Positions 3,767-47,794 of a stretch of 52,363 nt of DNA are shown here, piece by piece. Within the stretch, counting starts at the first letter, position 1; the number at the start of each line of letters is the position of its first letter. Position numbers and translations under genes: made by a program. This DNA is from Chrysochromulina tobinii. Its lineage: Eukaryota. Where the stretch lies: assembly GCA_001275005.1 (NCBI GenBank), contig JWZX01002639.1, positions 1 to 52,363 of the forward strand, read 5' to 3'. Under the pieces are notes generated by a model. The model saw only the letters and a list, made by a program, of their open reading frames with translations, did no database searches and was not told the origin of the DNA.

Positions 3767-4595
3767 AGACCCACCGGCGGGTGCCACGGCTGAAAAGTGG
3801 TGGGCTTTGGAATTGTGGTGCAATTGTTGTGGTGGGGGCCGCTCTGAACCTCTGTAGAGAACTGTAGAGTTTCTGTAGAGTTTACGTGAGTGACGCAAGG
3901 TCAAATATCACTGAAGCGAAGACGTGCTCCGCTTTATGATTCCGTTAACTTGATTCTACTTAGGTACTCGTTGGTTGCTTGGTTCTAGTTCTAGATCGAA
4001 ATTTGACGTAGAAGAATCGGCGTCGGAAAGGCAAAGCAATGAGGCAAAGTTCTCGTACGTGAGCTCGTTAAGGGATTGAATGTTTAGAAAGCCGCGGGAG
4101 CTCGCCATGGGGGCTAGGCAAAGGGACCGGCGCCGCCGCCCGGCGCCCGCGCGCGCCGCGGCCTCTTGAATCTAACTTGAAATAATCCTGCAATTTGGAA
4201 TCCTGTGCGGTCGGTTTGATTCCTTCGTGGCGGCGGTCTTTGGCGTTGCTTCAACCGGATGTCAACCCGGGAAATTCAAGTCTACCGTACTTGTAGCGCG
4301 TAGGTATACAGAAACAACAGACAAGGCCACATGAAGCCCACACGCAGAGCCCACACGCAGGGCCCACACGTCGACTTTCTTACTTGACTTTGAGTTGACC
4401 GAGGGGTGCGATGCCGTCCTTTGAGTGGTGAGCGCGGCCACCGCGACGAAACTGACTGTCTTGCTTGACTTGACTTTACTGACATGACTTGACCGCCCCT
4501 GTGTAAGGGGGAGGTCAGAACCCCCTTTGCCCTTATACATGTACCCTGTGAAGGCCTGCTGTCTCCACATTGCGTCCACTGCACCTTGGCCAGCC

Positions 4596-5363
4596 ATGTT
4601 GTTCGCGGACAAAAATGCGCTGCGCACGCAGCTGAAGGTTGACATGCTGCGCATCCGCGAGCGCGAGCTTCAATACTACACCAACAACTGCCTCGCCATC
4701 TCGACGTCCGCCGCGCTGCTCGCCGGCTTTGCGTGGTACGGCCTAACCGAGGTACCATTCGACAGCAACGCTAACCCGTTCACGCAGTGCCTTTACCTCG
4801 TGGTCACCACACTCATCATGGGCCTCGAGCTGCTGACCGTCGTCAACGCGACGCTGTGTGCCATCCTCGGGCCCGGCCTGGCGCTGCGCGGGCCCGACGG
4901 CTCGATGCACAATGCCGTGCAGGGCATGATGACGCACTACCGCTTCACGCTCGCGTGCTTCACGCTGGGCCTGATCTGCTTCATGATATCGGCCCTTCTC
5001 TATTCGTGGATGCAGTTCGACTGGACGCTCTCGTTGCCCATGACACTCCTTGTTATCTACTTCCTCATCCTCCTGTACCGATACTACTGGCGCATCTACC
5101 GACGCTTCCGTCTGCCGCCGGATGCGGCCGTCACGGGCGCCTTCAATGTGGGATCGGGCGACGGCGCGAGCTCCTCTTCAGGCTACGACGCGGCGCAGCG
5201 GGCTCAGCAGGAAGCACAGGAACGCGAGTACCAGCGCGAGATGGAGGAAATGCGCAAGACATACGGCCACCTGCCTGAGTCCGTCCGGGCCTCCATGGGC
5301 ATCGGCGGCGCGAGCGGCAACGGGGGCGCGGCCGGCGCAAGTGGCAACGGGGGCGCGCGCTGA
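4596..5363 (+). CDS. Orai (CRAC channel pore)-like 4-TM membrane protein
   Basis: TM1 TSAALLAGFAWYGLTEV resembles Orai TM1 (TSALLSGFAMVAMVEV); four hydrophobic segments; TM3 ends ...LLYSWMQF (Orai ...LLCWVKF). ATG at 4596. Confidence 0.7.
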   Translation: MLFADKNALRTQLKVDMLRIRERELQYYTNNCLAISTSAALLAGFAWYGLTEVPFDSNANPFTQCLYLVVTTLIMGLELLTVVNATLCAILGPGLALRGPDGSMHNAVQGMMTHYRFTLACFTLGLICFMISALLYSWMQFDWTLSLPMTLLVIYFLILLYRYYWRIYRRFRLPPDAAVTGAFNVGSGDGASSSSGYDAAQRAQQEAQEREYQREMEEMRKTYGHLPESVRASMGIGGASGNGGAAGASGNGGAR

Positions 5364-11285: not shown

Positions 11286-11581
11286 AGTCTTGGAAAGTTG
11301 GACCCACTCGCGTTGAGGCGGGTTGGGCCTCCCCAGAATCAAAACTACTCACACCCGCGGCGCGGCGCGCACTTACTCAGGTAAAAAGACAGGTACCGGT
11401 GCTGGCCCGAGTGGTCCGGACTCTGACGTCAAGGGTCGTAAATTGCCCCCGAAACATGAAACATGAAACCTGCGAACCAACGCTCACAAACTTCACTTTG
11501 GACAGGCTCGTCTCGACTCACTACAGAGTGGACGCGCGCACGGGAGGAGCGCCAGCGAGTTTGGGTTCGCTGCGCGCGCAA

Positions 11582-13954
11582 ATGGCTCCAAAGGGCACTC
11601 CGGCGCCGAACGTGCCGACCCCAATGCCTCAGACATCTCAGCCAACTCCGCCGCCTCCGCCGGGGCCCCCGCTGCCTCCAGCTGGCTTGGTGATTTCGGC
11701 CGCACGGCCTGTCAAACCTCCAAAGAAGACAAAGAAGTCAGTGATGCCCGGCGCCAAGACGGGGTGGCCGCCGCGCATGATCGACCAGTTTAAGGACTAT
11801 GCCATCATCGGCATCATACTGTTTCTAATCTATTTGTGGGGCCAAGCCCTGGCGGATGCAGCAGCGCACCCGCACAGTACCCTCGGCGGCTTGCACCTCG
11901 ATGCCGCGCCTGCGATCAACCACGGCGAGGCAGAGGCTCAAGAGCCGGCGCACCACGGGTCGTATCACTACGAGCCGGCGGAGGAGACGCACCACGAGGA
12001 GGAGACGCACTACGAGCCGGAGGAGGAGGAGCACGGAGCACGTAGGGTGTTGTCGAAGATTAGTCGGGTGCTGAGCGATCACCACGTAAAGGTGGACCCG
12101 GCGCTGGATATGCAGGTGACGCTCGGGATCTGCGTGCTGCTCATCTCGATCACGATCTTCTTCGAGATGGTCAAGCACCATCTCGAGCACACAGTGCCTC
12201 AGTCGATGGCTGCAATCCTGCAAGCTATGTTCGGCGAGCTGACGGTCCTTGGCTTCATTGCCCTGTGCACGTACTTCATGATCAAGTTTGGTCTGATCGA
12301 GTTCGCAAGTATGGTGATCTACCACGACCCGGAGCACCTGCTGCATCTTTTCGAGGACATCCACTTCATGCTCTTCTTCGTGATGATCATCTTCCTGATC
12401 GAGGCAATCATCCTCATCTTCGCCGCCCTCAATGCCGAGGCGTACTTCATGCGCTTCGAGGCGCTCGTCGCCAACGCGCCTGTGCTCAATGGGGCAGACC
12501 CCGCGGGGTCCGCGGCGGCGCCCGCGGTGGCACAGCTGCTCGCCACGTACAAGGTCGCGCGCCAACACTGCTGGACACGCCTGTGCGTGTGCCCGCGGGT
12601 GCTCTGGAGCTTCCGCGAGGCGGAGGCCAAGGAGGAGCTCACGTATGCGCTGCTGCGCGCGCGCTTCCTCTACCCTCCGATCCCGAAGCCAGGCACGCCG
12701 CCACTGCCGAGCGACTTCGACTTCTCGGCGTACTTGCGCCGACGTATGATGCACGAGGTCGCCCACTCACTCCACATATCGCCGAACACGTGGGCCGCGA
12801 TCATCTTCCTGCTTGGCCTCATTCTATACATCCCGGTACTCGAGCAGCACGAGCTCGGCGCCAACATAGTCAACGTGTACTCGGTGACGTCGCTGTGCTG
12901 GGGTCTCTGGCTATACTCGTTCTGCGTCAAGGCTAAGCTCGGGCACATAATGTACATGCTCACGCCGCCCCATGCGCTGCTTGACGGTGCGCCAAAGGCT
13001 TTCGACGAGGAGGGCCCGACGGTGGCGCTGCTCGCCGCGCACTGCGACGCGCCGCCGTACGAGTCGCTCACGCCGTCGACGGACGCGTCGAAGCACGAAC
13101 GGCTCTTCTGGCGTGGCCGCGATGGGCCCGGCCATCTGCTCTTCCTGCTGCGCTTCCAGATGCTTTGGACAGCGATCTGCCTCGCCGTCTGCTACACGTG
13201 GATGACCTCCCGGCCTGAGGACACCCCCTTCTTGCTCCTTGGCTTCCTGCCCGTGTTTGACGTGCTGCTGGTGGCGCCGAAGCGCATCATGCCGATGCTC
13301 ACCGTGGTCACCTCCATCGAGATGATGAAGAAGGCTGGCGACATCAAGGAGACGGTGGACGAGTTAAAGATTGAGAAGACGCTCAAGATGCTCAAGATGC
13401 TTCAGACCCTGCGTGGACAGGCGAAGCGCGCAGCCAGGCTTGCCGCCGCCGACAAGCAGAAGCGGCCGGGTGCGCCCAAGCCTAAGCCAAAGGAGATCGA
13501 CCCGGTGCAGGAGGAGGAGCTGCGTGAGGCCTTTGACCTCTTCGACAAGGACGGGAGCGGCCGTATGGACACGGCAGAGCTCGGCGACTGCCTCAAGTCG
13601 CTCGGTGTCGAGCTGGACGAGACCGCGCTGAATGCCTTGGCGGCTCAAATGGACACGTCGGGTGACGGTACCATCGACTTCGAAGAGTTCAAGGAGGCCA
13701 TGGCTTCCTCCGTCGACGAGAAGGAGACGAGCGGGCAGATCGCTAGCTCCATCTTCCAGATGCTTGACTCCGACGGCTCTGGCAAGATCACCTCGCAGGA
13801 GCTCAAGGACATGGTGAAGACGGTCAACCCGGACCTGACGGACGATGACGTGGCCGCTGCCATGACGCTCTTCGACACGGATAACTCGGGACAGATAACC
13901 GAAAAGGAGTTCCGGCAGGCCCTCGAGAAGATGAAGACGTTCGACCAGGCCTAA
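11582..13954 (+). CDS. MLO-like 7-TM protein with a C-terminal calmodulin-like 4xEF-hand domain
   Basis: MLO-type motifs ITIFFE..KHHL, GELTVLGFIAL, DIHFMLFF, FDFSAYLRR and LFW. EF loops DKDGSGRMD, DTSGDGTID, DSDGSGKIT and DTDNSGQIT. Confidence 0.8.
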   Translation: MAPKGTPAPNVPTPMPQTSQPTPPPPPGPPLPPAGLVISAARPVKPPKKTKKSVMPGAKTGWPPRMIDQFKDYAIIGIILFLIYLWGQALADAAAHPHSTLGGLHLDAAPAINHGEAEAQEPAHHGSYHYEPAEETHHEEETHYEPEEEEHGARRVLSKISRVLSDHHVKVDPALDMQVTLGICVLLISITIFFEMVKHHLEHTVPQSMAAILQAMFGELTVLGFIALCTYFMIKFGLIEFASMVIYHDPEHLLHLFEDIHFMLFFVMIIFLIEAIILIFAALNAEAYFMRFEALVANAPVLNGADPAGSAAAPAVAQLLATYKVARQHCWTRLCVCPRVLWSFREAEAKEELTYALLRARFLYPPIPKPGTPPLPSDFDFSAYLRRRMMHEVAHSLHISPNTWAAIIFLLGLILYIPVLEQHELGANIVNVYSVTSLCWGLWLYSFCVKAKLGHIMYMLTPPHALLDGAPKAFDEEGPTVALLAAHCDAPPYESLTPSTDASKHERLFWRGRDGPGHLLFLLRFQMLWTAICLAVCYTWMTSRPEDTPFLLLGFLPVFDVLLVAPKRIMPMLTVVTSIEMMKKAGDIKETVDELKIEKTLKMLKMLQTLRGQAKRAARLAAADKQKRPGAPKPKPKEIDPVQEEELREAFDLFDKDGSGRMDTAELGDCLKSLGVELDETALNALAAQMDTSGDGTIDFEEFKEAMASSVDEKETSGQIASSIFQMLDSDGSGKITSQELKDMVKTVNPDLTDDDVAAAMTLFDTDNSGQITEKEFRQALEKMKTFDQA

Positions 13955-22388: not shown

Positions 22389-23606
22389 CTAGGCCTCCTC
22401 CTCCTCCTCCTCCTCCTCGTCGTCGTCGTCATCCTCTTCCTCCTCGACACCATCGGGTGCCAGCGGCGCAACCTCGGGCATCGGTGGAGCGGCAGCGGCC
22501 ACGTCGACGCCGACCAAGGACGCATCCATGTCGGTGGCCACAGGGGCGTCGACGCCGTTGGTAGTGGCCGGCATGACGCTCGGCATGATGCTCGCTGCCG
22601 AGGCGTCTGTGATGGCACTCTCGAGCTTGACGCGCTTCGCCCCCGCGGAGTCACCCTCCTCGTCCGCCGCCAGCTCCGACTTGGGCTCCGCGCCGTGACG
22701 GGCGCCCGCCTCGTCCTCCTCGCCCTCATCCTCCTCTCCGAGACCGAAGTCCTCAGCGCCCGCCTCGCCCGCCTCCTCGTCCTCGCCCGCAGCACCGACC
22801 CCCGTGGCGCCCGCCGCGCTGGCCGCGCCGGCCGCGCCGGACGGCCCCTTGAACAACTTGGAAGCCGGGTTCTGCTCGGCGTTGCCCCAATTGCGTGCGG
22901 CCTCGCGGAAGGCGTCCTTGTGCGAAAGCTCGGGCTGCACGACCTTGATGCGAGCGACCTCGGTCTTCATAAAGAGGTTGTACGCACTCGGTGCGCGCGG
23001 TGCGCGCATTGGATCGCGCTCCCCACGCCGCTTGCGCCCGCGCCCGCGCCCGCCGCGCCCGCCGCCGCGTGTCGGGTCGGCCCCATACTGCATCCCGCCC
23101 ATGCTGGGGGGCATGCCTGGCGGTCCGGCGCCCATCATGCGCGGATCGTGCCACTTCATCATGCGCGGGTCCACGAACTGCTGCTGCTGCTGTCTGGGCG
23201 GCATCATGTACTGCTGCTGCTGCATCATCTGCATCTGCGCCGGCGCGGGAGCCTGGTTTTGCACTGCGATCGACTGGTTCGGCACCGCGATCTGAAACTG
23301 GCTCCCGGGGCCGGCGCCCTGGGGCACGACGACCATGTACTGCTGGCCGGTCGGCGTCATCACCACCATCTGCTCTCCGACGCGCACGTTGGGCGGCACG
23401 TTCACCAGCATGAGCGTGACGCCGGGCATCTGCTGCTGCTGCTGCATCTGCTGCTGCATCTGGTGGTGCTGCTGCTGCTGAAGCTGCAGCAGCTGCTGCT
23501 GCTGCAGCTGCTGCAGCAGTTGCTGTTGCTGCTGCTGCTGCTCGGCGTACCCCGGCGGCATCTGCCCGGGCATCTGCGGGAAGCCCGGCGGCATGTTCGG
23601 TTGCAT
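22389..23606 (-). CDS. PolyQ protein with a YABBY-like/HMG-box-like domain and an acidic tail
   Basis: RAPSAYNLFMKTEVARIKVVQPELSHKDAFREAARNW closely matches the YABBY C-terminal domain. Q-rich N-terminus, RG-rich basic patch, D/E tail. ATG at 23606. Confidence 0.8.
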   Translation of the reverse strand: MQPNMPPGFPQMPGQMPPGYAEQQQQQQQLLQQLQQQQLLQLQQQQHHQMQQQMQQQQQMPGVTLMLVNVPPNVRVGEQMVVMTPTGQQYMVVVPQGAGPGSQFQIAVPNQSIAVQNQAPAPAQMQMMQQQQYMMPPRQQQQQFVDPRMMKWHDPRMMGAGPPGMPPSMGGMQYGADPTRGGGRGGRGRGRKRRGERDPMRAPRAPSAYNLFMKTEVARIKVVQPELSHKDAFREAARNWGNAEQNPASKLFKGPSGAAGAASAAGATGVGAAGEDEEAGEAGAEDFGLGEEDEGEEDEAGARHGAEPKSELAADEEGDSAGAKRVKLESAITDASAASIMPSVMPATTNGVDAPVATDMDASLVGVDVAAAAPPMPEVAPLAPDGVEEEEDDDDDEEEEEEEEA

Positions 23607-24107
23607 CGTCCTGGGTGACAGGTTGAAGACTGGACAAATAGATGGCCTTTCTTGCGATCTACTGGTACGTGTCCGTTTCTGGATGCTCGCCCATGAGATT
23701 TGTGATAATTGATGAGTGCTACCGGTAACGGTTGTATTGCGTCGACACATGAGAATGCTCGCCAAATGCCCAAATTCTATGTAAGCTTCAATATGCACCA
23801 CGATTACCATGCGATTACACTGCGACCCCTGCAGCAGTCAGAAATTTCGCGGACCAGAAGTACGCTCTCCGCACTGACCACGAACTCCGCGCTTACATGT
23901 ACGGTATTGGGCATCGACCACACTCATGCACTCATTGGTGCCAGCCCAGCTTTACATTATACATTGTACCTTTTTCCGATACACGGCTGTATGTGTAGCA
24001 GGTTGTGGATGCCACCGTGCGCGCGCGCGCGCGCGTGCCCCTTGGCGCGTGCGCATTGTGGGGGGTTGGAGTTGCGCGTGTGTTTCACAGCGCCTGCACA
24101 GCTCACA

Positions 24108-35485: not shown

Positions 35486-36310
35486 AGAGAGCTCACTGCA
35501 CTGACCTCTACCGGTCCGCGACTCTGAGAGGTCGACGTACTACCCCGCGTGGGTCGGTAGACTATCGGTAGACCGGCGCCCAAGACGCGGCCCGGGGTCA
35601 GTCCGTATAATTTATGACGCTAGTGTGCGGGACGGTCCGCAGCCTCGAATCTCATATACATCTCTGGAGGTCGCGAGCGAGCCGCTGCGCGCGCGACCCC
35701 GCGCGGCCGGGCCGGAGCGCCGTGTATGATACTATCGGAGCGCGCGCGCGCGGCGTGTTTTCGTTGTCGGAGAAACACATAGAAGTTGGAACGAGATACC
35801 GCCGTCACATATGCACTCAAGCACACGCGCCTCAGATCCAGAACACACCCCGCCTCAAGAGAAGGAGGGTGAGGTGGCCTCACACACAGCGCGCCGCCCA
35901 CAATACACGTCGCGGTTGCGTCGGCTCCATCGACAGGGCTCCGCCGCAGCGCCCTTCTGCGCGCGCGCCTTTCCCCGCCGCACGGTCCACACGCCGCGCT
36001 CGCTCGAACCCTCGCAGCGTCACAAGTCACGCCCTCTCTTTGGCCCTACGGCCGTTCGGACACTCACCCTCCGCTGGGACGCTGGATGTCCGAATCGCTC
36101 ATATCGCACACGCACCGTCGTCCTCCCATCTGTGCCCACTCCTGCGCCCTCTAGCCCATGCTTGCGTGCCTGCCATGATCGCGTGTGCGGCGCGCCTACC
36201 GTTGACGCGGACCGCTCCCCGTTTGCCCCGTTGTGCCTCGCCCTTGCCCGGGGACAGGAAACCCACGCCAGCACAGGCGCATCCCCAGAGCACCGGCCGC
36301 ACAGGTGCTC

Positions 36311-39300
36311 TTAGTAGCCGCCGTAGCCGCCGCCGCCATAGCCGGGGGCCATGCCCCCCCCCATACCCGCGCCCGGCATCGGCGCGCCGTACATCACCAT
36401 GGCGTTCGGGTCAGCGTAGCCGCCGCCCATGGACGGATCGCTGTAGCCGGACGCGAGCGCCTCCTGCGCCGCCTTCTTGGCATCGGCCTCCGCCTTCTCC
36501 TTGTCTTCCTGGATCTTCACGAGCTTGTCGAGCTTGAGCTGCATCTCACGCATCGTCTGGATCATGAAGGGCATCGCAAAGTCCTGCAGATTGTTGCGCC
36601 ACGCGAGCTCAAGCACCACGTCCGAGCGGAGCAGCGGGTAGCACGTGAACAATGTGGCCGCGAAGCAAGCGTTGAGCTTCTCAGCCACGAAAAAGTTGAG
36701 CAGGTCCTCCGCAGTCGCGGAGTCGGACGATTCGGCGGCCGTTGAGATCGCCTCGTCCCAGACCTTGTCCTGCTTCGACAGCGCAATGGACTTCTGCCAC
36801 TTTTGCGCGCGTTTGTAGAGCATGGCGCCGATGCGCCTGAACTGCAGCAGACCGTGCTTCTCGCACAGGTTGGCCATCTCGATCGCGTCGAAGTTGGTGA
36901 ACTGGACGACCGCCTCAGCGAGGGCCTCGTGGTCCTCTTCCTGAACGTAGAGCTCATAGAGGACGTCGTTGACCTCCTTGACGTTGGCCGTCTGCGTGCT
37001 GAGCAGGTACGGCTTGGCCAGCGCGATGTGGCCCGCCTTTTTCAGCAGCGAGATGACGCGCACGTGGTCGACATGGCTGGCGAGGACGCCCAGCAGGTCG
37101 TTGAGCATCAGCGGCTGCTGCTTCAAGTAGAAGTCGATCGACTTGTAGTAGATCTCGGTGTTGGTCACCTTGGCGATCGTGTCCTTGAACTTGACGTGCT
37201 CGAAGGCCTCGACGGGGTGTGCGATCATCGAGAGCACGGCGTTGTCGAACTCGTCGTAGTGCACGTAGAGGAAGGTAAGGCACTCCCACTGCGCAGCCTC
37301 CTCGCACGCCTTGATCATCTTGCGCACGTTCAGCCTTGACCAGAAGAGCTTGATGTGCTCCATGAGCTTGTTCTCCTTGTACTTGCAGTAGAGGATGCCG
37401 AGCTCGGTGAAAATGCCCATGTGCGCGCGCTCGAGCCCGAGGCCGGCTTCCATGACGGCGATGACCTCGTCAAAGTAGCCGTGCCTCTCGTACGTGCTCA
37501 CGAGCTCCTCCAGCTCGTCGGGGTTGACGATGATGTGCAGCGCGCAGATCTGGGCCAGCCGGAACTCTTTCTCGGCGATGCAGCTCGCGGCGACCTCCTT
37601 CCAGGTGCGCGTCGAGTTGGCCTTGCGAGCGGCATCGACGGCTGGCTGGTGCTGGCCCATGTACGTGAGGCACGTCGCGAGGCGCGCAAAGTTGGGGATT
37701 GAGCTGAAGAGGATCTTGGCGGCCTCATACATCTGCTCCGAGAAGCAGCGCTCGGCAATGTCCTGGATGCGGGCCACGTTGGGCGCCGAGATGAACTCCT
37801 CCATCTGCGCGAACTGCTCGCCCTTGGCGTAGGCGAAGATGAGGGACGTGTCCAGGTGGCTCTCCTTGACCTTCTTGCGGCACATGACGAGGAAGGTGGT
37901 GAGCTCGACCCAGCAGCCGAGCGCCTCGGCGGCCGAGATCACCTCCGTGTAGGAGGAGGCGTCGTTGGCCTTGATGAAGGACTTCATCGACTCCTGGACC
38001 ATGCCGTGCGTCAGCTGGGCCTTGCCGAGCATGATCCACACCTCCTCCTGGTCCACGCGCGCGGCGAACTCGGTCGCCCGCTCCATGTTTGCGATGTAGT
38101 CAATGAGCACCTTGGCCGCCTCGCGCTGCATGTTGGCCTTCTTGAAGATGACGAGCGCCTCCTCGTACAGCTCGGAGCCCACGGCGATGTTGGCAATGTC
38201 CGGCATGTCGTAGTTGCTGAGGCGGTTGATGTAGTCCATCACCTTGGTCTTGTCTGCCTTGATAGCGGTCAGGATGAGCAGGTTCTGCAAGTTGCGGTTG
38301 TCCGAGAACTCGGACTGCTGCAGCACGATCTTCTCAAGCAGCTCGATGAGCTCGTTGGGCAGGTCGGCCGTCATGAAGGCCTTGACCGTGGTCGAGACGA
38401 CGTCGGGATTCTTGGTCTCGGGCAGCGCGGAGCCCACGACGGCGTCGATGAGCGGCCGCTTGTGCTCGTTGTCCTCGGTCAGCACGGTTGCCCACAGGTC
38501 GAGGTCCTGGCGCTCCACGAGGTAGCGAGCCTCCTGCTTGAAGAGGCCGTGGCGGTTGCACACGTCGATGAGCTCCTTGTCGCACATGCCACGCTTGTAC
38601 GCGATGAAGGCGAGGTGGGGGTCGCGCTTCTCGCAGTACTCGCCCACGACTCGCGAGTCGTAGTACATGTTCTGGACGAGGTTCTCCTCGGGCCGATTGT
38701 TCATGTCGATGTAGATCTTCATGAGGGCGTTGTGCACGGCCGGCTCCTGCACGCCCTCGTTTTGGCGCTGCTCGAGCCACGGCTGGATGATCTTGAGGCG
38801 GTTGCGCTTCTCGCACTCCTCGACGAGCTGCTCGGCCGGCGCCATCGCGCGCACCGAGAGGATGAGCGCGCGCACGAAGTCCTCCGAGCAGTCATCGTCG
38901 AGCAGCTGGCCAGCGACCTGCGGGCACTTCATCGGGTTCACCTTCTGCACGTAGAGCTCAATGTACTTGGACATGTTGTTCGTGTACAGGAAGTGCGTCA
39001 GGTCGGCGACCATGTCGAAGCGATCGCACACGTTGATGAGGGGGCGCTGGTCGGGCAGGCGCGCCTCCTTGAGGAAGGCCGCCACTTCCTTGGGGTCGAA
39101 GAAGGTGTCCTCGCGCGTGACGCGCTCGACCTCCTGCAGGTTGTTGATCTTGGCGGCTGCCTGGATGTACTTGAAGTGAACCTCCTTGTCCTCGGACTTG
39201 AGCAGGATCGCGCCCAAGTAGTAAAAGAGGCCCTCCCACGAGTTGTACGTCTCGAACATCTTAATGAGGTTCGCCGGGGTGAGCTGCTCCGAGTACTCGC

Positions 39301-41520
39301 GCGCCACCTGCACCACGATCTGTAGGTTCTGGCGCATGTTTGTGCGGAGCATGTGGTTGAGGCACTCGATCGAGTTGTCGACGGACTGCGTGCCGAAGAA
39401 CTTGACGATGAAGTCAGGCTGCATCAGCTCGGTGCGCATGAGCGCACGCTTGATGTCATCGATGTTCTCGTAGTGCTGCAGGGCGCGCGCGGGCAGGCCC
39501 GCCTTCTCGCACAGCATGCCGATGCGAGCCTTGTCGTAGTGCGTGAACATCTCGTTGGCCATGATGGCGTCGGCCACCTGCGGCATCGCCATCAGGTTCA
39601 TCTCAAGCAGGCGCGTCTGGAGCGCCCCCTCCTCGGGCTTGTTGCCCTTGAGCACGTCGAGCAGGAACGAGGTGGCCTGCTGCAGGCAGTTGTGCGACAT
39701 GAAGACGTCGGTGACCACAGCATAGTCGAGCGTGATGCCACCGGCAGCGGCCTTCTGCGCAAACTCGAGCGCGCTGCCCGGATTCAAGCGCACCATGTGC
39801 GTGAGCAGGATGCCCCAGTCGGGCGTGTAGTTCACCTTCTGGCAGTAGACCAAGATCTTGTCGAACTGGCCCTTCGACATGAACATCTGGATGACCTTGG
39901 GCGAGCACTGGCCGCGCAGGTAGACGGAGAGGGCGAGGTTTTGGTCGACCATCGAGACGGCGTCGCCGAGCTGCTCAGTGCACTCAAGCTTGTCCTCGCT
40001 GATCCACTTCTGGAGCAGCTGCTGCTTGCCCTGCTGGATGACGGGCTTAGCTGAGCTCGAGCGACTCCATCGCGTTGAGCTTGCCCTTCTCGAGCAGCAT
40101 ACCGAAGTAGGTGAGGATGGGTGGCGAGCCACCTGGCGGCGGGGGCGCGGCCTGGAAGCGCGCGATCGTGTCGGACGTGCGCAGAATCTGCTTCGGCGAG
40201 TCGGCCGCCAGCTTGGCTGCATCCTTGTAGTTGCCCTGCTGCATCAGAGCGGCGAACTGCTGGATGAAGAGCTGCTCAACCCCCGGCAAGTTGCAGCGCG
40301 AGGCGATGCGGAGCGCGAGCTGGAAGTCGGAGAGCTGCTCACAGATGTAGGGCACAAGGTTGGCCTCATCGACGGTCACGCAGAGCACCTGACCCTTGCG
40401 GTTCACGCCCATGATGCCGCCGGTCGCGTCGTGCGGGGTCGTCACGAAGATCGTCTCGCTCGAGATGCGGTTCATGTAGATGAGCTTGCACGCCTCGACG
40501 TCGTACAGGTGCAGGTAGCCGAACTTGGTGACCATGTACACGACGTTGTACTTGTTCGAGATCTGCATCGACGCCGGGAAGTCCTGCGCCGCCTCCGGCG
40601 GGAAGTAGATGTCGCAATTCTTCTTGCCGAAGGGCGGTGTGCCCTCGGGACGGGCGCCAGGGCTCACCTCGATGACGTGCAGCTTGGCGCCTGTAGCCGT
40701 CTTGGCGGCGAAAACGAATAAGGTGGAGGGCGTGGTGGCGCCCTCGACGGTGAACTGTGCGAAGGTGGCCGCGTGGCCCTCGATGGGCTGCGACACGTTC
40801 TTCTCCTTCGAGAACAGCTGCATGGCGCCGATGATGCGGTTGGTGCCCGGCTCGACCTTGATGCCAATGAGAACCATCCACTTCTCGTCTGGCGACGTAT
40901 TGTAGTTGGTGATCAGGGTGTCGCCGAGCGTCGGGTGGCGGTCGAAGACTTTGGCTGGCTCCGACTGCCCCTCCATCGACCAGTGGAAGACGGCCCCGCC
41001 CGTGACCATCGCCACATTGGATGGCGAGGTCCAGCGCCAGAAGATGGTCGGTTCGGTGAGCTGGTGCGACTTCATTTTGCTCTTCATCTCCATGTTGAAG
41101 ATCTGATGGTAGTTGCCCGCTTTGAGCGCGATGATCTTGGAGACGGGATTCATGATCGCCGACTCAGTTGTGATCGGCCCCCGCTGCACATCCGTCGGGT
41201 TGGTCATGTCGATGATGGCGACCTGCACCGGCACCGTGTCATTCACCCACGGCACCTCGCGGATGCAGATGAACTTCTCGGACTCCATCGTCAGCGTGGC
41301 GAAGCTGATGAATTGCGGTTGGATGCCCAGATTGGTGAGCTGGACCAGCTGCGGGCCATGAGGCGTGGGGAAGGGGATAAGCACTAAGCGTTATGAGGAA
41401 CAGGGAGGCAGCAGATGAGCGACGTGAGCACGTTGAAGCGCGCTTCCGGGTGTGCTTGCCGCAGTGCCACGGCGAGCGGCGACACACCTCTTGAAATTTG
41501 ATGGGGAGGCCAGCCCCGCG
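36311..41520 (-). CDS. CHC: Clathrin heavy chain: first exon fragment ~41488-41520, intron 41349-41487, +1 frameshift at ~40052, no own ATG
   Basis: LPIKFQE|LVQLTNLGI...TLTMESEKFICIRE, IEGHAA, TKFGYLHLYD, then after the frameshift KWISEDKLEC, LERAHMGIFTELG, LELAWRNN, FAMPFMIQ. An extra A in GAG CTC A GCT AAG CCC creates a TAA. Confidence 0.95.
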
Positions 41521-44500
41521 TGACGTTCCAACGTGCGCTGGGACTGGCTGCGACTGTCCAGGCGCTCTTGAAGTGCTTGCTACTGTGGGCGATCTTGGGG
41601 AGCCTGCCGCTGCCGTCGCCACATCCAGCTTGCCAAGAGTCGAAACCGCTGCCGCACGCCTTTTGAGATTGCGCACGAAGCCCGTTCGCACATTCTGCTG
41701 CGTGCATTGGCTCAGGTCCACACGGTACGCCTGTCCGCGGATTTCGATTCGGAAGCGCAGGACACCCCCCGCCTCATGGTTTCGGAACGTCTCCTCCGAG
41801 GCGGTGTCGAAGAGCTGCCACGCCCCGCTGCCAACAGCACCATCCTCCCACATCCACACGTGCGCTGGGACTGGTTGCGACTGTCCAGGTGCTCTCAAAG
41901 TGCTAGTTACTGTGGGCGATCTTGGCGAACCCATCGGCGGATCCACGGCCCAGCCCATCGGCGGCTGATCCACGGGCCAACCCATTGGCGGCTGGTCCAC
42001 GGGCCAGGAGCCCATTGGTGGCTGATCCACGGGCCAGCCCATTGGCGGCTGGTCCACGGGCCAGGAGCCCATTGGTGGCTGATCCACGGGCCAGCCCATT
42101 GGCGGCTGATCCATGGGCCAGGAGCCCATTGGTGGCTGATCCACGGGCCAACCCATTGGGACCGGAGGAGGCGCCGCGGAGGTGGAGATGTCATAACCTG
42201 CAGCTGCCGGCATGCTGACCACTGCCAGCGTGCTTACCGCTGCCGGCGTGCTTACCACGTCAGGAGATGGAGGGGCGGGCTGAGTAGGCGTTGGCGTCAC
42301 ATTGCCGAAGAGCGGGTCAGTCCAATCAGACCGGTCAGACCAGGCAACCGAGCCAGTCCCGTTGGAAGGCTGAGGAGGTGTTGGCGTCAAGTTGCCGCAC
42401 TGAGCTTGTAGCATCTCCGCCTTCTTGGCATCCTCGCCGTCCGTCAGATGCCACAACGATTTGGCTGCAGTCGCCTTGCCTTTAGCGTCACCGTCGCGAA
42501 CGAGCGTCACGAGCGCATCAATGCCTCCCGCGGCCCAGATTGCGGCCTTGTTGGCAACGTCGTCTGCCGCCAGACTACACAACGCGCCGGCTGCGTTCGC
42601 CTTGCCACTAGTGTCGCCATTGCGCACGAGCATCACGAGCGCCTCGATGCCGCCCGCGGCCCGGATCGCCGCCTTGTTGCTATCGTCATCTGCCGCCAGA
42701 ATCCGCAACGCGGCGGCTGCATTCACCTTGCCTACAGCGTCGCCGTCGCGCACGAGCGTCACTAGCGCCTCCAAGCCGCCCGCCGCTTGGATCGCCGCCG
42801 TGATGCGATTGTCGACGTACGCCAGAGTCCGCAACGCAGCGGCTGCGTTCGCCTTGCCATCAGCGTCGCCGTCGCGCACGAGCGTCACGAGCGCATCAAC
42901 GCCGCCCGCGACCCGGATCGCCGCCGTGATCCAATCGTCTCCTGCCGCAAGATCCCACAACGCACCGGCTGCGTTCGCCTTGCCTGCAGCGTCGCCGTCG
43001 CGTACGAGTGTCACGAGCGCCTCGATGCCGCCCGCGGCCCGGATCGCCGCCTTGGTGGCATCGTCAGCTGCCGCCAGAATCCGCAACGCGGCGGCTGCAT
43101 TCACCTTGCCTGCAGCGTCGCCGTCGCGCACGAGCATCACGAGCGCATCGATGCCGCCCGCGGCCCGCATTGAGGCCTTATTGGCATCGTCCGCTGCCGC
43201 CAGAATCCACAACGCGCCGGCTGCATTCATCTTGCCATCAGCGTCGCCGACGCGCACGAGCGTCACGAGAGCCTCGATGCCGCCCACCGCTCTGATCGCC
43301 GCCGTGATGCCATCGCCTCCTGACGCCAGACCCCACAACGCGCCGGCTGCGTTCACCTTGCCATCAACGTCGCCGTTGCGCACGAGCGCCACGAGCGCAT
43401 CGATGCCGCCCGCGTCCCGGATCGCCGCCGTGATGCCATCGTCTCCTGCCGCAAGATCCCACAACGCACCGGCTGCGTTCGCCTTGCCATCAGCGTCGCC
43501 ATTGCGCACGAGAACCACGAGCGCCTCGATACCGCCCGCCGCTCGGATCGCCGCCTTGTTGGCATCATCAGCTGCCGCCATAATTCGCAATGCGCCGGCT
43601 GCGTTCGCCTTGCCTGCAGCGTCGCCGTCGCGCACGAGCGTCACGAGCGCATCGATACCGCCCGCTGCCCGGATCGCCGCCTTGTTGGCATCATCAGCTG
43701 CCGCCAGATTCTGCAACGCTACGGCTGCGTTCGCCTTGCCTGCAGCGTCGCCGTCGCGCACGAGCGCCACGAGCGCCTCGATACCGCCCGCCGCTCGGAT
43801 CGCCGCCGTGATGCCACCTTCACCTGCCGACAGACCCCACAACGCGCCGGCTGCGTTCGCCTTGCCTGCAGCGTCGCCGTCGCGTACGAGCGTCACGAGC
43901 GCCTCGATGCCGCCCGCCGCCCGTATGGCCGCCTTGTTGGCATCATCAGCTGCCGCCAGATTCTGCAACGCGGCGGCTGCGTACGCCTTGCTTGCAGCGT
44001 CGCCGTCGCGTACGAGCGTCACGACCGCCAACGCGAGCGTCGCCGTATCCAGCTTGCCAAGAGTCGAGACCGCCACCCGACGCACATTTTCATCGGAGTC
44101 CGCGAGCCTTGCGACGAGCGCGGGCGCATGCTGATCGAGCGTCGCCGCATCCAGCTGGCCAAGAGTCGAGACCGCCTTCCAACGCACATCTGAATCGGAG
44201 TCCTCGAGCCTTGCGACGAGCGCGGGCGCGTGCTGAGCGAGCGTCGCCGTATCCAGCTGGCCAAGAGTCGAGACCGCCGCCGCACGCACACTCCAATCGG
44301 AGTCTTGGAGCCGTGCGACAAGCGCGGGCGCGTGCTGAGCGAGCGTCGCCGCATCCAGTTGGCCAAGGGTCGACACAGCCGCCCAACGCACATCTGAATC
44401 GGAGTGGCTGAGCCTTGCGATGATTATCGCAGGCGCGTGCTGAGCAATCGCCACCGCATCCAGCTTGCAAAGAGTCGAGACCGCCACCCGACGCACATTT

Positions 44501-46152
44501 TCATCGGAGTCCGCGAACCTTGCGACGAGCGCGGGCGCATGCTGAGCGAGCGTCGCCGCATCCAGCTGGCCAAGAGTCGAGACCGCCGCCAAACGCACAT
44601 GCGAATCGGGGTGGTCGAGCATGGCGACGATCTTGACAACGTCATCTGCCGCCAGAATACACAACGCGCCGGCTGCATTCGACCTGCCTGCAGCGTCGCC
44701 GTCGCGCACAAGCGTCACGAGCGCCTCGATGCCGCCCGCGTCCCGGATCGCCGCCGTGATGCCATCGTCTCCTGCCGCAAGATCCCACAACGCACCGGCT
44801 GCGTTCGCCTTGCCATCAGCGTCGCCATTGCGCACGAGAACCACGAGCGCCTCGATACCGCCCGCCGCTCGGATCGCTGCCTTGTTGGCATCGTCGGCTG
44901 CCGCCATAATTCGCAATGCGCCGGCTGCGTTCGCCTTGCCTGCAGCGTCGCCGTCGCGCACGAGCGTCACGAGCGCATCGATACCGCCCGCCGCTCGGAT
45001 CGCTGCCTTGATGCCATCGTTGCCGCGTGCCAGACTATCCAACGCGCCGGCTGCGTCCGCCTTGCCTGCAGCGTCGCCGTCGCGCACGAGCGCCACGAGC
45101 GCCTCGATACCGCCTGCCGCCGTTATCCCCGCCTTGTTGGCAGCGTCGCTGAACGCCAGACTCCACAACGCGCCGGCTGCGTTCGCCTTGCCTGCAGCGT
45201 CGCCGTCGCGCACGAGCGTCACGAGCGGTGCGATACCGCCCGCTGCTCGGATCGCCGCACTGATAGCATCGTCGCCGCGTGCCAGAATCCGCAACGCGCC
45301 GGCTGCGTTCGCCTTGCCTTCAGCGTCGCCGTCGCGCACGAGCGCCACGAGCGGTGCGATACCGCCAGCTGCCGTTATCCTCGCCTTATTGGCAGCGTCG
45401 CTGCACGCCACATTCCACAACGCTATGGCTCCCTTTGACTTGCCTGCAGCGTCGCCCTTGCGAGTGAGCTTTACGAGCGCCTCGATGCCGCCTGCCGCCG
45501 CGATTGTCTTCCGGTTGGCCGTGTTGCGCGCTAACTTCCACAACGCCTCCGCGGCTGCAGCCTGCTCCTCAGCGGTGCCATCTCTCAGCATCGCCACCAG
45601 CGGCGGGACGGCGCCGGCCGCGGCGAGAGACTCGCGCATTGGGTTTGTCGCTTCCCCTGGTGGTGCGTTGGCGAGAATTGCAATACCAGTCGCCGCGGGC
45701 GTCCGCACACCGATGGCGCATGCTTGCAATAATGCCACCAGCGCCACCGCATCCGCGTCGGCCACTGCGCGCACCACAGCGGCGGCGCTCTGCACCCCCC
45801 CAAACCCGACCGTAGGCTGCCCCCCCCCTTCAAGACCGGGGTTTCCCACGCTCAGAAGAGGAGCAGTCGGCGGCCATGACGCGGCTGGCGGTGCGCGTAG
45901 GATCGGCCACCAGCTCTTCCTGGCGGTGACGGCGGTGGCGGCGCCCTTGGCGCCGCCCGTTGCACCCGATGTCGATGGGGATGACCGGGCCTGCAGTGGA
46001 TTTGGCGGCGGCGGCGGTGGGCTGGCGACGGTGAACCGTGGTTCCGGCTTTGGCGGCGGAGGTGGATTGTCGACTGTGTTCTTTGGTGGCCCGTGCTGGG
46101 CCTGTGATGATGGCGGCGGTGGTGGCGGTGTGTAAACCAGCGAGCCGCGCAT
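41488..46152 (-). CDS. ARM-repeat/HEAT-repeat/WWE protein running in frame into clathrin exon 1
   Basis: About 8 ARM repeats (44640-45640), about 6 HEAT-like 37-aa repeats (44030-44630), about 13 ARM repeats (42430-44030), PMG(S)WPVDQP repeats, then WWE (VWMWEDG..GAWQLFD...YRVDLSQCTQQNVRTGFVRNLKRR). First ATG at 46152. Confidence 0.85.
41930..42160 (-). repeat. 27/30-bp coding minisatellite (PMG[S]WPVDQP)n
   Basis: About eight alternating units visible in both DNA and translation. Confidence 0.9.
42430..45640 (-). repeat. 126-bp ARM tandem array interrupted by a 111-bp HEAT-like array
   Basis: Near-identical DNA units such as GCGTTCGCCTTGCCTGCAGCGTCGCCGTCGCGCACGAGCG recur with 126-bp period. 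Confidence 0.92.
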
Positions 46153-46477
46153 CTGTGCGTCCACCTCCGCGGCAGCTTGCTGAGCCCGCGGCCGCGGCAA
46201 ACGAAGCCGGCGCCACCCTTTCACTCGTTTCCCCGTCCGAACGGAGCCTCCGACCTTTATTACGGGTACCCGGTACAGTACGGACCCAAAGCAACTCCCG
46301 GAAAAGCAAAACTATGCCCCTGCTCGGAAATGATTTTCCTCTTGACGAGCGACTTACGAGATGAACTACTGTACCGGTACTTCACAGGTCTCGAAGTTTG
46401 GGGAAAAAAGGGTCATCACACACAGGGTCCCGATGTTGGGCACAGAACAGTACCTGTACCACCACAAGACTCCTCCA

Positions 46478-47794
46478 ATGGCCCGGTTGTCGATGATGGG
46501 GGGCTTCCTCGCCATGATGGTGGGCTTCACCAGTGCAGACGCCACCTGCACAAACACGTGCAATTACGCCTTCGATCGCGTGTGTGACGATGGCGGCCCG
46601 GGCTCCAGGTATAGCGATTGCAAACTCGGCACCGATTGCTTCGACTGCGGCATATCACCCCACAAACCACCTTCCGCTCCATTGCTCCGCCGACCCCCGC
46701 CATTGGCCCGTAGCCCGTCCTGGCCCGTCCTGGCCCGACCCCCGCCGCTGCCCCGAGCCCCGCCGCTCCCGCCGCTCCCGCCACTGGTCTGCCCGGCGAT
46801 AATCGCCACCGCGCAAACTCAGCATTGGATCTACAGCATCCCATTGATCGTCCTCGTCCTCGTCCCCTTTGGGTCCTATTCACTTTGCCCGAATCCACTC
46901 TACGAACGTGGTTGTGGCGGCCGAAGACAGCACGGCATCCTCGCCCTTATATTTGCCGTGATCCTGCCTGTTTGCTACGTTCTCATCCTGGTTACTTTTC
47001 CTTACTGCGACGGACGTGGACACTCTCCAGATTTTTGTACCGCATGCCTTGGCTGGTGGTACGCGCCGATCGGAACCAGCTGGCCACTAAGCAGCATATC
47101 CCCGATCATGTTCGTCTTCACTAGCTTGTTGCTTGGCGAAATGATGGCCTCGATCTACATTGCCACAGTCTGTCTCTGCGGCTCTGAGCCAGTGCAACGC
47201 GCCATTTGGGCCAAACAGGTTCTGCTTTGGCCCTTTCTGCTTTTTCTCTTGCTCGGCTTCTTTGCTTTGTGCATTCTCACGGCTAAGGACGGTGGTTGCC
47301 AGGGTAGTCAATTGCCTTGTCCTTCCACAGGGAGCAACGGTGGATCTCGCTCCGCCTCGCGCGCGAGCGCCTCCTCCTCAACGCCGCCTCCGAGAACTGC
47401 CCGTCGCCCTCCGCGCCCTCGCCTTTCAAAGAGGCCGTGGAACATCTTCTTCTCGTCGCTCGTCCGCCGCCGCACGGCCGTGAGAAGCAGCGCCAAGTTT
47501 CTTTTCCCACCTCGCCGGGCTCCTGCCCAAGCTCCATCTCACTTGTTATCGTTTGGTAGCCTATCAGAGACGGCGACTAGCTCACTAATGTCCAACCAGG
47601 CGACTCCAGATGTGCACGTTGTGCCAAATACCCCCGTTCACGTCCTAAACCCCAAGGCTTCTATGGATACACCTCACGGTGACACGTCAGTCGGGGTTTG
47701 TACACAACCTACTTGTACGCGAGCGCGCAGGCCAGACACGCCGGTCTGCACTCCTCTCTCGAGCCCCTCTCTGCCTCCCATGCTGCCTCCCTGA
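46478..47794 (+). CDS. Membrane protein with signal peptide, Cys-rich extracellular module (CDDGGPG...C..GTDC.DCG), Pro-rich stalk and several TMs; 3' end uncertain
   Basis: Hydrophobic N-terminus from ATG 46478, 6-Cys module, hydrophobic helices. The C-terminal third is low-complexity and may be off-frame or intronic. Confidence 0.55.
   Translation: MARLSMMGGFLAMMVGFTSADATCTNTCNYAFDRVCDDGGPGSRYSDCKLGTDCFDCGISPHKPPSAPLLRRPPPLARSPSWPVLARPPPLPRAPPLPPLPPLVCPAIIATAQTQHWIYSIPLIVLVLVPFGSYSLCPNPLYERGCGGRRQHGILALIFAVILPVCYVLILVTFPYCDGRGHSPDFCTACLGWWYAPIGTSWPLSSISPIMFVFTSLLLGEMMASIYIATVCLCGSEPVQRAIWAKQVLLWPFLLFLLLGFFALCILTAKDGGCQGSQLPCPSTGSNGGSRSASRASASSSTPPPRTARRPPRPRLSKRPWNIFFSSLVRRRTAVRSSAKFLFPPRRAPAQAPSHLLSFGSLSETATSSLMSNQATPDVHVVPNTPVHVLNPKASMDTPHGDTSVGVCTQPTCTRARRPDTPVCTPLSSPSLPPMLPP

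What the first reader, a model, noticed from the sequence alone, without database searches (positions are those of the whole stretch)
40047..46152. In-frame chimera: ARM/HEAT repeat array-WWE-clathrin heavy chain (integrated-domain/decoy-like architecture)
Seen: the N-terminus of clathrin (GAGLPIKFQE) is the direct in-frame continuation of the ARM/HEAT/WWE ORF (...PVPAHV-GTSR-GAGLPIKFQE|GT), with no ATG or stop between them. The phase-0 intron 41349-41487 then joins the rest of clathrin. As written this gives ~1,555 aa of repeat/WWE plus ~433 aa of clathrin terminal propeller and linker (~3,200 aa if the frameshift is an error). Known: clathrin heavy chains normally begin within a few residues of LPI(R/K)FQE; the terminal domain binds adaptors and clathrin is used in entry by many viruses; WWE domains often bind poly(ADP-ribose); plant NLRs carry integrated decoy domains. 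Inference: a variable repeat scaffold has captured host domains, possibly as an algal immune sensor or trafficking adaptor.
Basis: partly seen in the sequence, partly recalled or inferred. Interest (0 to 1): 0.9.

Follow-up and report, generated by a model that had tools for sequence, protein, structure and literature searches.

The report
Clathrin fragment captured by shuffled scaffold
Besides its normal clathrin gene, a freshwater alga carries a second, spliced gene in which the front half of clathrin is fused behind a WWE domain and probably a long repeat array, from a gene family that swaps in pieces of housekeeping proteins, likely as bait in an ADP-ribosylation-based defence.

Summary
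The fusion is real, but the window misdraws it. A 374-nt contig matches WWE end, junction and intron exactly in 3 of 4 DNA runs laid; the fourth spans it with differences. One lake RNA contig is spliced across it. A separate ATG-started clathrin also exists. The window is a collapsed mosaic: 46152-39119 is a diverged partial duplicate (clathrin residues 2-749) that then runs in frame into an unidentified module; 39118-36311 is the normal gene. The frameshift is an artefact: the two copies' alleles are written side by side, and 0 of 7 runs carry it. Relatives shuffle modules: 15 of 20 close WWE copies are followed by a PARP10/14-like domain, and partners include ubiquitin/SUMO-like, Nup98 GLEBS, ArfGAP and U-box-dynamin domains. 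The captured propeller carries Q152L, I154T, V262A and R64G at adaptor-binding sites. An immune bait role is my best reading but untested; neutral shuffling debris is the main rival. The ARM-to-WWE link of this copy rests on the assembly alone.

The parts
41488..46152 (-). Exon 1 of the chimeric gene, 1,555 codons from ATG 46152: Pro-rich start, N-cap, ARM, HEAT, ARM, linkers, WWE, clathrin codons 2-10
   Evidence: start codon inferred; ARM-to-WWE link rests on the assembly
45538..45786 (-). Family N-cap before the ARM array, 60-81% identical in 31 stored relatives (many are near-copies from different assemblies)
44646..45498 (-). ARM array 1, 6.8 x 126 nt
44033..44630 (-). HEAT array, 5.8 x 102 nt
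42413..44029 (-). ARM array 2, 12.8 x 126 nt
41935..42159 (-). MGWPVDQPP tandem repeat (27/57 nt), also in relative L003 (88%)
41858..41931 (-). Family linker copy 1 (GSPRSPT...QSQPVPAH), precedes WWE as in WWE-PARP relatives
41658..41862 (-). WWE domain, multi-copy; identical at protein level in P0379, where PARP follows
41614..41659 (-). HEAT-unit fragment, standing where relatives continue into PARP
   Evidence: D17; loose ends at 41660
41531..41604 (-). Family linker copy 2, 89% identical to copy 1
   Evidence: D19
41515..41530 (-). 16-nt joint between linker and clathrin codon 2; its last codon stands where canonical clathrin has Met
41349..41487 (-). Clathrin intron 1, 139 nt, GT..AG, spliced in RNA
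39119..41348 (-). Exon 2 of the duplicate: clathrin residues 11-749 (propeller, linker, start of leg) with about 24 substitutions and two 2-residue insertions; in the window collapsed with the canonical copy
40051..40052 (-). Assembly artefact: the Thr allele (duplicate) and the Ala allele (canonical) both written, giving a false frameshift and stop
36311..39118 (-). 3' part of the canonical clathrin heavy chain gene, not part of the chimera

Best explanation
This is a spliced chimeric gene in which a partial DNA-level copy of the clathrin heavy chain gene (residues 2-749, intron included) sits in frame behind the WWE domain of a module-shuffling gene family, probably with the ARM/HEAT array in front, and it likely acts as a bait-carrying sensor in an ADP-ribosylation-based defence. 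Shown: the junction in DNA and spliced RNA; a separate canonical clathrin; the end of the copy at residue 749 and its in-frame exit; siblings ending in WWE-PARP or carrying other host-type domains; substitutions at W-box and clathrin-box residues. Inferred: lacking clathrin's C-terminal half, the protein would not build cages (trimerisation by the C-terminus is recalled knowledge). The propeller would catch pathogen proteins that carry clathrin-binding motifs, while damaged W-box and clathrin-box residues would limit poisoning of the cell's own endocytosis. The WWE domain would read ADP-ribose laid down by sibling PARPs, and the repeats would scaffold the complex.
For: Junction in 4 of 4 DNA runs, exact in 3; spliced exact RNA contig in a lake run. 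The frame survives 2,298 codons, two 6-nt insertions and an exit at a codon boundary; AlphaFold keeps the propeller, pLDDT 92, with the insertions in one loop. 15 of 20 close WWE copies are followed by PARP, closest to PARP14/10/15 among solved structures (E 6e-20). Related modules carry SUMO-like, ubiquitin, Nup98 GLEBS, ankyrin, ArfGAP and U-box-dynamin domains. One locus differs in its upstream modules between two samples (L001/L003). All amino-acid changes are departures from the canonical alleles; 19 of 24 fall in the first 433 residues (P 0.03); 3 of 6 listed W-box residues are changed (P 0.002 before correction). Q152L is a published W-box mutation and viral peptides bind the same sites (PMC5182127, abstract and passages). 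A free terminal domain inhibits endocytosis (PMC7480105, abstract).
Against: No infection, binding or knock-out data. RNA support is one 192-nt contig at depth 3 against 49 for canonical clathrin, in 1 of 3 RNA runs laid; it reaches only 99 nt past the junction, not to WWE or ARM. Substitutions are not depleted at conserved sites (mean conservation 0.72 against 0.68), and a neutral rate on the duplicate's branch is not rejected (P 0.09-0.16 if half the silent changes are on it). Binding-site enrichment depends on the list: 2 of 26, P 0.36, with the review's list alone; 4 of 29, P 0.04, with three residues added after I had seen the changes. Mutated sites weaken a bait as well as detoxify it. 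This copy has no PARP after WWE and its C-terminal module is unknown. A protein-identical WWE precedes PARP in P0379, so the ARM link could be a misjoin in an assembly already collapsed nearby.
Confidence: 0.45

Rival explanations
1. A young, functionless by-product of a recombination-prone repeat family: the clathrin piece was copied in by chance, is transcribed from the family promoter, and is decaying or being neutralised.
For: Changes hit invariant residues at least as often as chance; branch rate is compatible with neutrality; RNA depth is low; truncated or out-of-frame family members exist (P0153, P0159, P0367, P0369).
Against: No stop in about 2,300 codons after roughly 4-5% silent divergence; both insertions and the 3' exit are in frame; overall dN/dS 0.29-0.32 (though this includes the canonical branch); present in culture runs, a 2022 metagenome and lake RNA.
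Confidence: 0.3
2. A trafficking regulator: the propeller targets the ARM/HEAT/WWE scaffold to coated pits or dampens clathrin-mediated uptake in a phagotrophic alga, with no role in defence.
For: Q89, F91, K96, K98 and the arrestin-box residues are unchanged; other partner modules are also trafficking-related (ArfGAP, dynamin-like, weakly FAM21-like); free terminal domains inhibit endocytosis (PMC7480105, abstract).
Against: Other partners (Nup98 GLEBS, SUMO-like, ubiquitin, PARP) are not trafficking-specific; rapid allelic reshuffling is unusual for a housekeeping adaptor; W-box residues are damaged.
Confidence: 0.13
3. The WWE-linker-clathrin fusion is real but the long ARM/HEAT array belongs to a sibling WWE-PARP gene (misjoin in the shared WWE), or transcription starts in the linker and yields clathrin 32-749 only.
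For: The unique contig ends at 41713 inside a multi-copy WWE; P0379 has the same WWE protein sequence followed by PARP; the RNA contig has no ATG on its exon-1 side, so a short message would start at Met32; the same assembly is collapsed at 39119-41350.
Against: The shared WWE block is only about 280 nt against 2.2 kb for the collapsed clathrin repeat; the order ARM, MGWPVDQPP, linker also occurs in L003; a fragment of the window's own HEAT unit follows WWE (D17), and none of the stored relatives has that HEAT array, which ties the 3' joint to this array.
Confidence: 0.1
4. The whole fusion is an assembly artefact.
For: The assembly is demonstrably collapsed in the clathrin part.
Against: Exact junction contigs in 3 DNA runs, a spanning contig in a fourth, and a spliced RNA contig with duplicate-type letters.
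Confidence: 0.02

Closest known systems
Plant NLRs with integrated domains (NLR-IDs; PMC4759884, abstract read)
   Same: A repeat-containing scaffold is fused in frame to copies of host domains that pathogens could target; partners vary between family members.
   Different: No NB-ARC/NACHT or LRR here (Pfam); the scaffold is ARM/HEAT; the family's enzymes are PARP or dynamin-like GTPase; no pathogen effector is known.
Animal WWE-PARP mono-ADP-ribosyltransferases (PARP10/12/14/15, ZAP; PMC4038475, abstract read)
   Same: Siblings carry WWE followed by a PARP domain closest to PARP14/10/15, with gene birth and turnover.
   Different: The window's copy has no PARP after WWE; N-terminal modules are freely swapped and include host-type fragments; no macrodomain or CCCH finger was found.
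Brown-algal ROCO and NB-ARC-TPR candidate immune receptors (PMC3341825, abstract read)
   Same: Algal, fast-shuffling repeat proteins coupled to a signalling enzyme; function inferred from evolution.
   Different: There each repeat is an exon; here repeats lie in one long exon and whole foreign domains are taken in.
Clathrin heavy chain
   Same: Residues 2-749, 95-96% identical to the canonical protein over the first 433 residues, same intron, same predicted propeller.
   Different: No own Met, no C-terminal half, changed W-box and clathrin-box residues; the canonical gene is intact elsewhere.
Gene-fragment capture by Pack-MULE or Helitron elements (recalled, no call)
   Same: DNA-level capture of a gene piece with its intron into a chimeric transcript.
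   Different: No inverted repeat of 25 nt or more in 41000-46500, no transposase among the 28 ORFs scanned, no shared upstream end with L003.

Membership tests
NLR with integrated domain | NB-ARC or NACHT (STAND) ATPase | tested here: not met
   No such Pfam hit in the known 2,298 aa; the unknown C-terminal module is untested
NLR with integrated domain | In-frame, transcribed fusion to a copy of a host domain whose parent gene persists | tested here: met
NLR with integrated domain | Integrated domain binds a pathogen effector and triggers defence | not testable with these tools
   needs binding and infection assays
Functional clathrin heavy chain | N-terminal seven-blade propeller and linker | tested here: met
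   Pfam; model pLDDT 92
Functional clathrin heavy chain | Full leg and C-terminal trimerisation region | tested here: not met
   copy leaves clathrin at residue 749 in 4 of 4 DNA runs
Functional clathrin heavy chain | Intact adaptor-binding sites | tested here: not met
   Q152L, I154T, V262A, R64G, L88H at positions 97-100% conserved in 29-30 homologues; core clathrin-box and arrestin-box residues unchanged
Chrysochromulina-type linker-WWE-PARP mosaic family (defined here) | Shared N-cap, linker and WWE modules at 72-100% identity | tested here: met
Chrysochromulina-type linker-WWE-PARP mosaic family (defined here) | PARP domain directly after WWE | tested here: not met
   replaced by HEAT fragment, linker and clathrin; 15 of 20 relatives have it
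Mono-ADP-ribosyltransferases (siblings) | NAD-binding His and Tyr, and catalytic activity | tested here: inconclusive
   WHGT and G-SYF motifs in 9 of 9 checked align with PARP14; activity untested
ADP-ribose-binding WWE | Binding of ADP-ribose | tested here: inconclusive
   Pfam WWE above cut-off; only weak alignment to TRIP12 and DTX1 WWE (E 0.12, 0.55); binding untested
Transposon-borne gene capture | Terminal repeats or element ends around the chimera | tested here: inconclusive
   none found at the 5' side; the true 3' end is not in the window

The most novel reading that the evidence does not exclude
Chrysochromulina-type haptophytes run an NLR-free integrated-decoy immune system: ARM/HEAT scaffolds, WWE readers and PARP or dynamin-like effectors are recombined within species with copies of host hubs that pathogens attack (clathrin propeller, Nup98 GLEBS, SUMO, ubiquitin, ArfGAP), so the captured pieces list the targets of algal viruses, and the clathrin bait has been retuned at the same W-box residues that biochemists mutate to disable it.
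Probability: 0.3. Interest if true: 0.9.

Novelty: new variant of a known kind. Interest (0 to 1): 0.72.

Why it matters
How single-celled algae sense viruses is largely open. A family that recombines repeat scaffolds, ADP-ribosylation modules and copies of essential host domains gives named candidate receptors and effectors in a cultured alga with a cultured virus (PMC12085832, search listing), so the idea can be tested. A natural, expressed N-terminal fusion to clathrin with W-box changes is unusual whatever its function. The result also shows that this contig's clathrin model is an assembly mosaic.

Tried and rejected
No whole genome was held, so a genome-wide count of copies was not possible. 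Stop at 40047 as a real truncation: rejected. Full-length 3,200-aa chimera: rejected (loose end at 39119). Upstream micro-exon giving this copy its own Met: not supported, since the spliced RNA contig runs 99 nt past the Met position unbroken. Exact look-up of 8 window translations found only the 1,213-aa C-terminal clathrin ORF. Viral origin: no WWE relative in viral contigs, no match for the downstream module. The downstream module was not found among 428 stored proteins or 3 loci. No fused clathrin was among the best 120 of 1,594 hits of 759-2,165 aa; the chimera would exceed that range and 90% clustering could hide it. RNA runs X14 and X16 showed no junction contig, which contigs cannot turn into absence. 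The canonical intron and 5' end were not seen in the laid contigs; their existence rests on proteins P0129-P0132. FAM21-like identity of the LFGDDDD repeats is only a lead (Atlas 0.77, CAP-ZIP_m in 39% of members). No complex prediction was run. Earlier-finding searches by sequence and words returned nothing.
Full report
1. Sequence. On the minus strand one frame runs from ATG 46152 to 41488 (1,555 codons): Pro-rich start, ARM repeats (6.8 and 12.8 units of 126 nt), HEAT repeats (5.8 units of 102 nt), a MGWPVDQPP repeat, a linker, WWE, a HEAT fragment, a second linker copy, then GTSRG-AGLPIKFQE and a GT donor. The intron is 139 nt, GT..AG. Named cluster-mates of the family are Chrysochromulina tobinii and C. 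parva proteins, so the organism is inferred to be a freshwater haptophyte of that kind. No whole genome was held.

2. A canonical clathrin exists. Cluster members P0129, P0131 and P0132 begin MAGLPIKFQE and are 1,684 aa long; P0129 is seen on 39 contigs; P0130, called from inside the intron, lies on 23 contigs of up to 113 kb. Against P0129/P0130 the window has 19 differences and two 2-residue insertions in the first 433 residues of exon 2, 4 in the next 90, and none after that. The front of the window's clathrin is therefore a diverged copy and the back is canonical.

3. The junction is real. I laid 7 of the 21 listed runs (X13 twice). A 374-nt contig covering 41340-41713 has 0 differences in DNA runs X1, X2 and X8; these 2018 culture runs may be one campaign and the window's own strain. 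X11, a 2022 metagenome, spans 41163-41733 with 12 other letters and 12 gaps. Lake RNA run X13 has a 192-nt contig joined 41348/41488, skipping exactly the intron, with 0 differences, including three letters at which canonical RNA of X16 differs (two of them also in X14). It extends to 41613, 99 nt past clathrin codon 2, with no ATG on that side. Its depth is 3 against 49 for canonical clathrin. X14 and X16 showed no such contig.

4. The window is a mosaic. In X1, contig depth is 45.8 over 35800-39148 and 71.8 over 39225-40898, with two-branch bubbles (44 and 41.5) further up; X2 and X8 show the same bubbles. Depth is not a copy number, but the bubble pattern means two copies. All 4 DNA runs have a loose end at 39119, the third base of the codon for residue 749; its 30 letters, translated by hand, continue in frame as SVGGDMGGDM. 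Canonical RNA contigs cross 39119 unbroken. The duplicate thus covers residues 2-749 and then enters another module, and the assembly crossed from it into the canonical gene. Whether the two lie in tandem is unknown.

5. The frameshift is an artefact. X1 and X2 lack base 40051, giving Thr; X8, X11, X13, X14 and X16 lack base 40052, giving the canonical Ala. X1 and X2 carry window-type letters at the flanking sites 39977 and 40175. The window writes both alleles one after the other; 0 of 7 runs do. The chimera is therefore at least 2,298 aa.

6. The family. Of 20 stored proteins with a WWE at least 60% identical, many of them near-copies, 15 continue into PARP; 3 end at WWE, 1 breaks off, 1 continues into the HEAT fragment. 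Loose ends at 41660 in X1, X2, X8, X13 and X16 read into that PARP-ward sequence. The PARP is closest to PARP14, 10 and 15. Upstream modules vary: SUMO-like (L002); ARM, ubiquitin-like and acidic LFG repeats in a 2,240-aa open frame (L003); AEKAA repeats with an unnamed domain (P0149, P0150, P0154); EF-hands (P0382, which ends at WWE). The ARM N-cap, 72-81% identical, also occurs with U-box plus dynamin-like GTPase (P0247, P0284, P0288, P0352) and with ankyrin plus Nup98 GLEBS (P0350, above the Pfam cut-off). Two C. tobinii ArfGAP models end in the linker read in another frame. L001 and L003 share WWE-PARP and 2.5 kb of flank at 96% but differ directly upstream of WWE, so shuffling is recent. 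Most other ARM hits (best 120 of 240) are more distant and carry only repeats or kinases.

7. The captured propeller. In mammalian numbering the duplicate has R64G, A68T, L88H, Q152L, I154T, V262A and A360V at positions 97-100% conserved among 29-30 homologues. Q152 and I154 are W-box residues and Q152L is a published disabling mutation (PMC5182127, abstract and passages; PMC8805674, passages); V262 and R64 are named as W-box and clathrin-box contacts (PMC11543927, passages). Three of 6 W-box residues are hit (P 0.002 uncorrected, chosen after seeing the data); over all sites the result is 4 of 29 (P 0.04) or 2 of 26 (P 0.36), depending on the list. From 42 sites read off truncated tables, 20 are silent and 22 lie in changed codons, dN/dS about 0.3 over both branches; on the duplicate branch alone neutrality is not rejected. 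The model keeps the fold, with both insertions in one low-confidence loop; AlphaFold is a weak test of point changes.

8. Mechanism. Shown: intron-retaining partial duplication, in-frame fusion, splicing, intact parent gene, shuffling family with PARP. Inferred: a non-polymerising propeller that serves as bait, detuned for the cell's own adaptors because free terminal domains block endocytosis (PMC7480105, abstract), linked by WWE to sibling ADP-ribosyltransferases. I put this at 0.45, neutral debris at 0.30, trafficking regulator at 0.13, wrong N-terminus or short message at 0.10, artefact at 0.02. The reality of the WWE-linker-clathrin fusion itself I put above 0.95.

9. Relation to known systems. 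It works like an NLR-ID in layout (PMC4759884, abstract) but fails membership, with no STAND ATPase in the known part. [quoted passage not shown] Searches listed no paper on this fusion or family (listings only); the C. tobin genome paper has no occurrence of armadillo, PARP or gene fusion in its main text (PMC4580454, term search; supplements not read), and the C. parva virus paper none of clathrin or ADP-ribos (PMC12085832, term search). The library lacks most subscription papers.

10. Limits. Only contigs, no raw or long reads; one RNA contig; the ARM-to-WWE link and the C-terminal module are open; no functional data.

Noticed in passing
window 37709 (run X11): A second loose end at a codon boundary (clathrin residue 1219) reads in frame as GDMEKELREI, sharing GDM with the 39119 exit; it may be a longer variant of the duplicate in another population. 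One contig in a low-depth run.
   Followed up: partly
L003:4247-10969: 2,240-aa open frame: ARM, acidic LFG repeats, ubiquitin-like, ARM, MGWPVDQPP, ARM, WWE, PARP.
   Followed up: partly
P0247, P0259, P0284, P0288, P0352: U-box plus dynamin-like GTPase plus the same ARM cassette, with varying tails; P0259 shares a Cys-rich module with WWE-PARP protein P0149. Whether the GTPase is Mx-like was not tested.
   Followed up: partly
P0350 (and P0339): Ankyrin, Nup98 GLEBS motif (P0350), FG-like repeats and the ARM cassette in one protein.
   Followed up: partly
P0367, P0369: Two C. tobinii ArfGAP gene models end in the family linker read in another frame and cluster with WWE-PARP; probably mis-modelled fusions.
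   Followed up: partly
L002:6192-6776: RST (RCD1-SRO-TAF4) domain just upstream of SUMO-like-WWE-PARP, possibly the same gene across an intron; plant RCD1 combines WWE, PARP and RST (recalled).
   Followed up: no
window 41519-41535: The joint between linker and clathrin contains a short inverted repeat, as templated repair could leave.
   Followed up: no
window 11288-13954 (+): ORF with a weak MLO match (E 2.6e-4) and four EF-hands.
   Followed up: no
window 46346-47794 (+): Head-to-head neighbour without a Pfam match: Cys-rich start, Pro-rich stalk, hydrophobic segments.
   Followed up: no
window 4488-5363 (+) and 22389-23837 (-): Orai-type calcium channel; YABBY/HMG-box protein.
   Followed up: no
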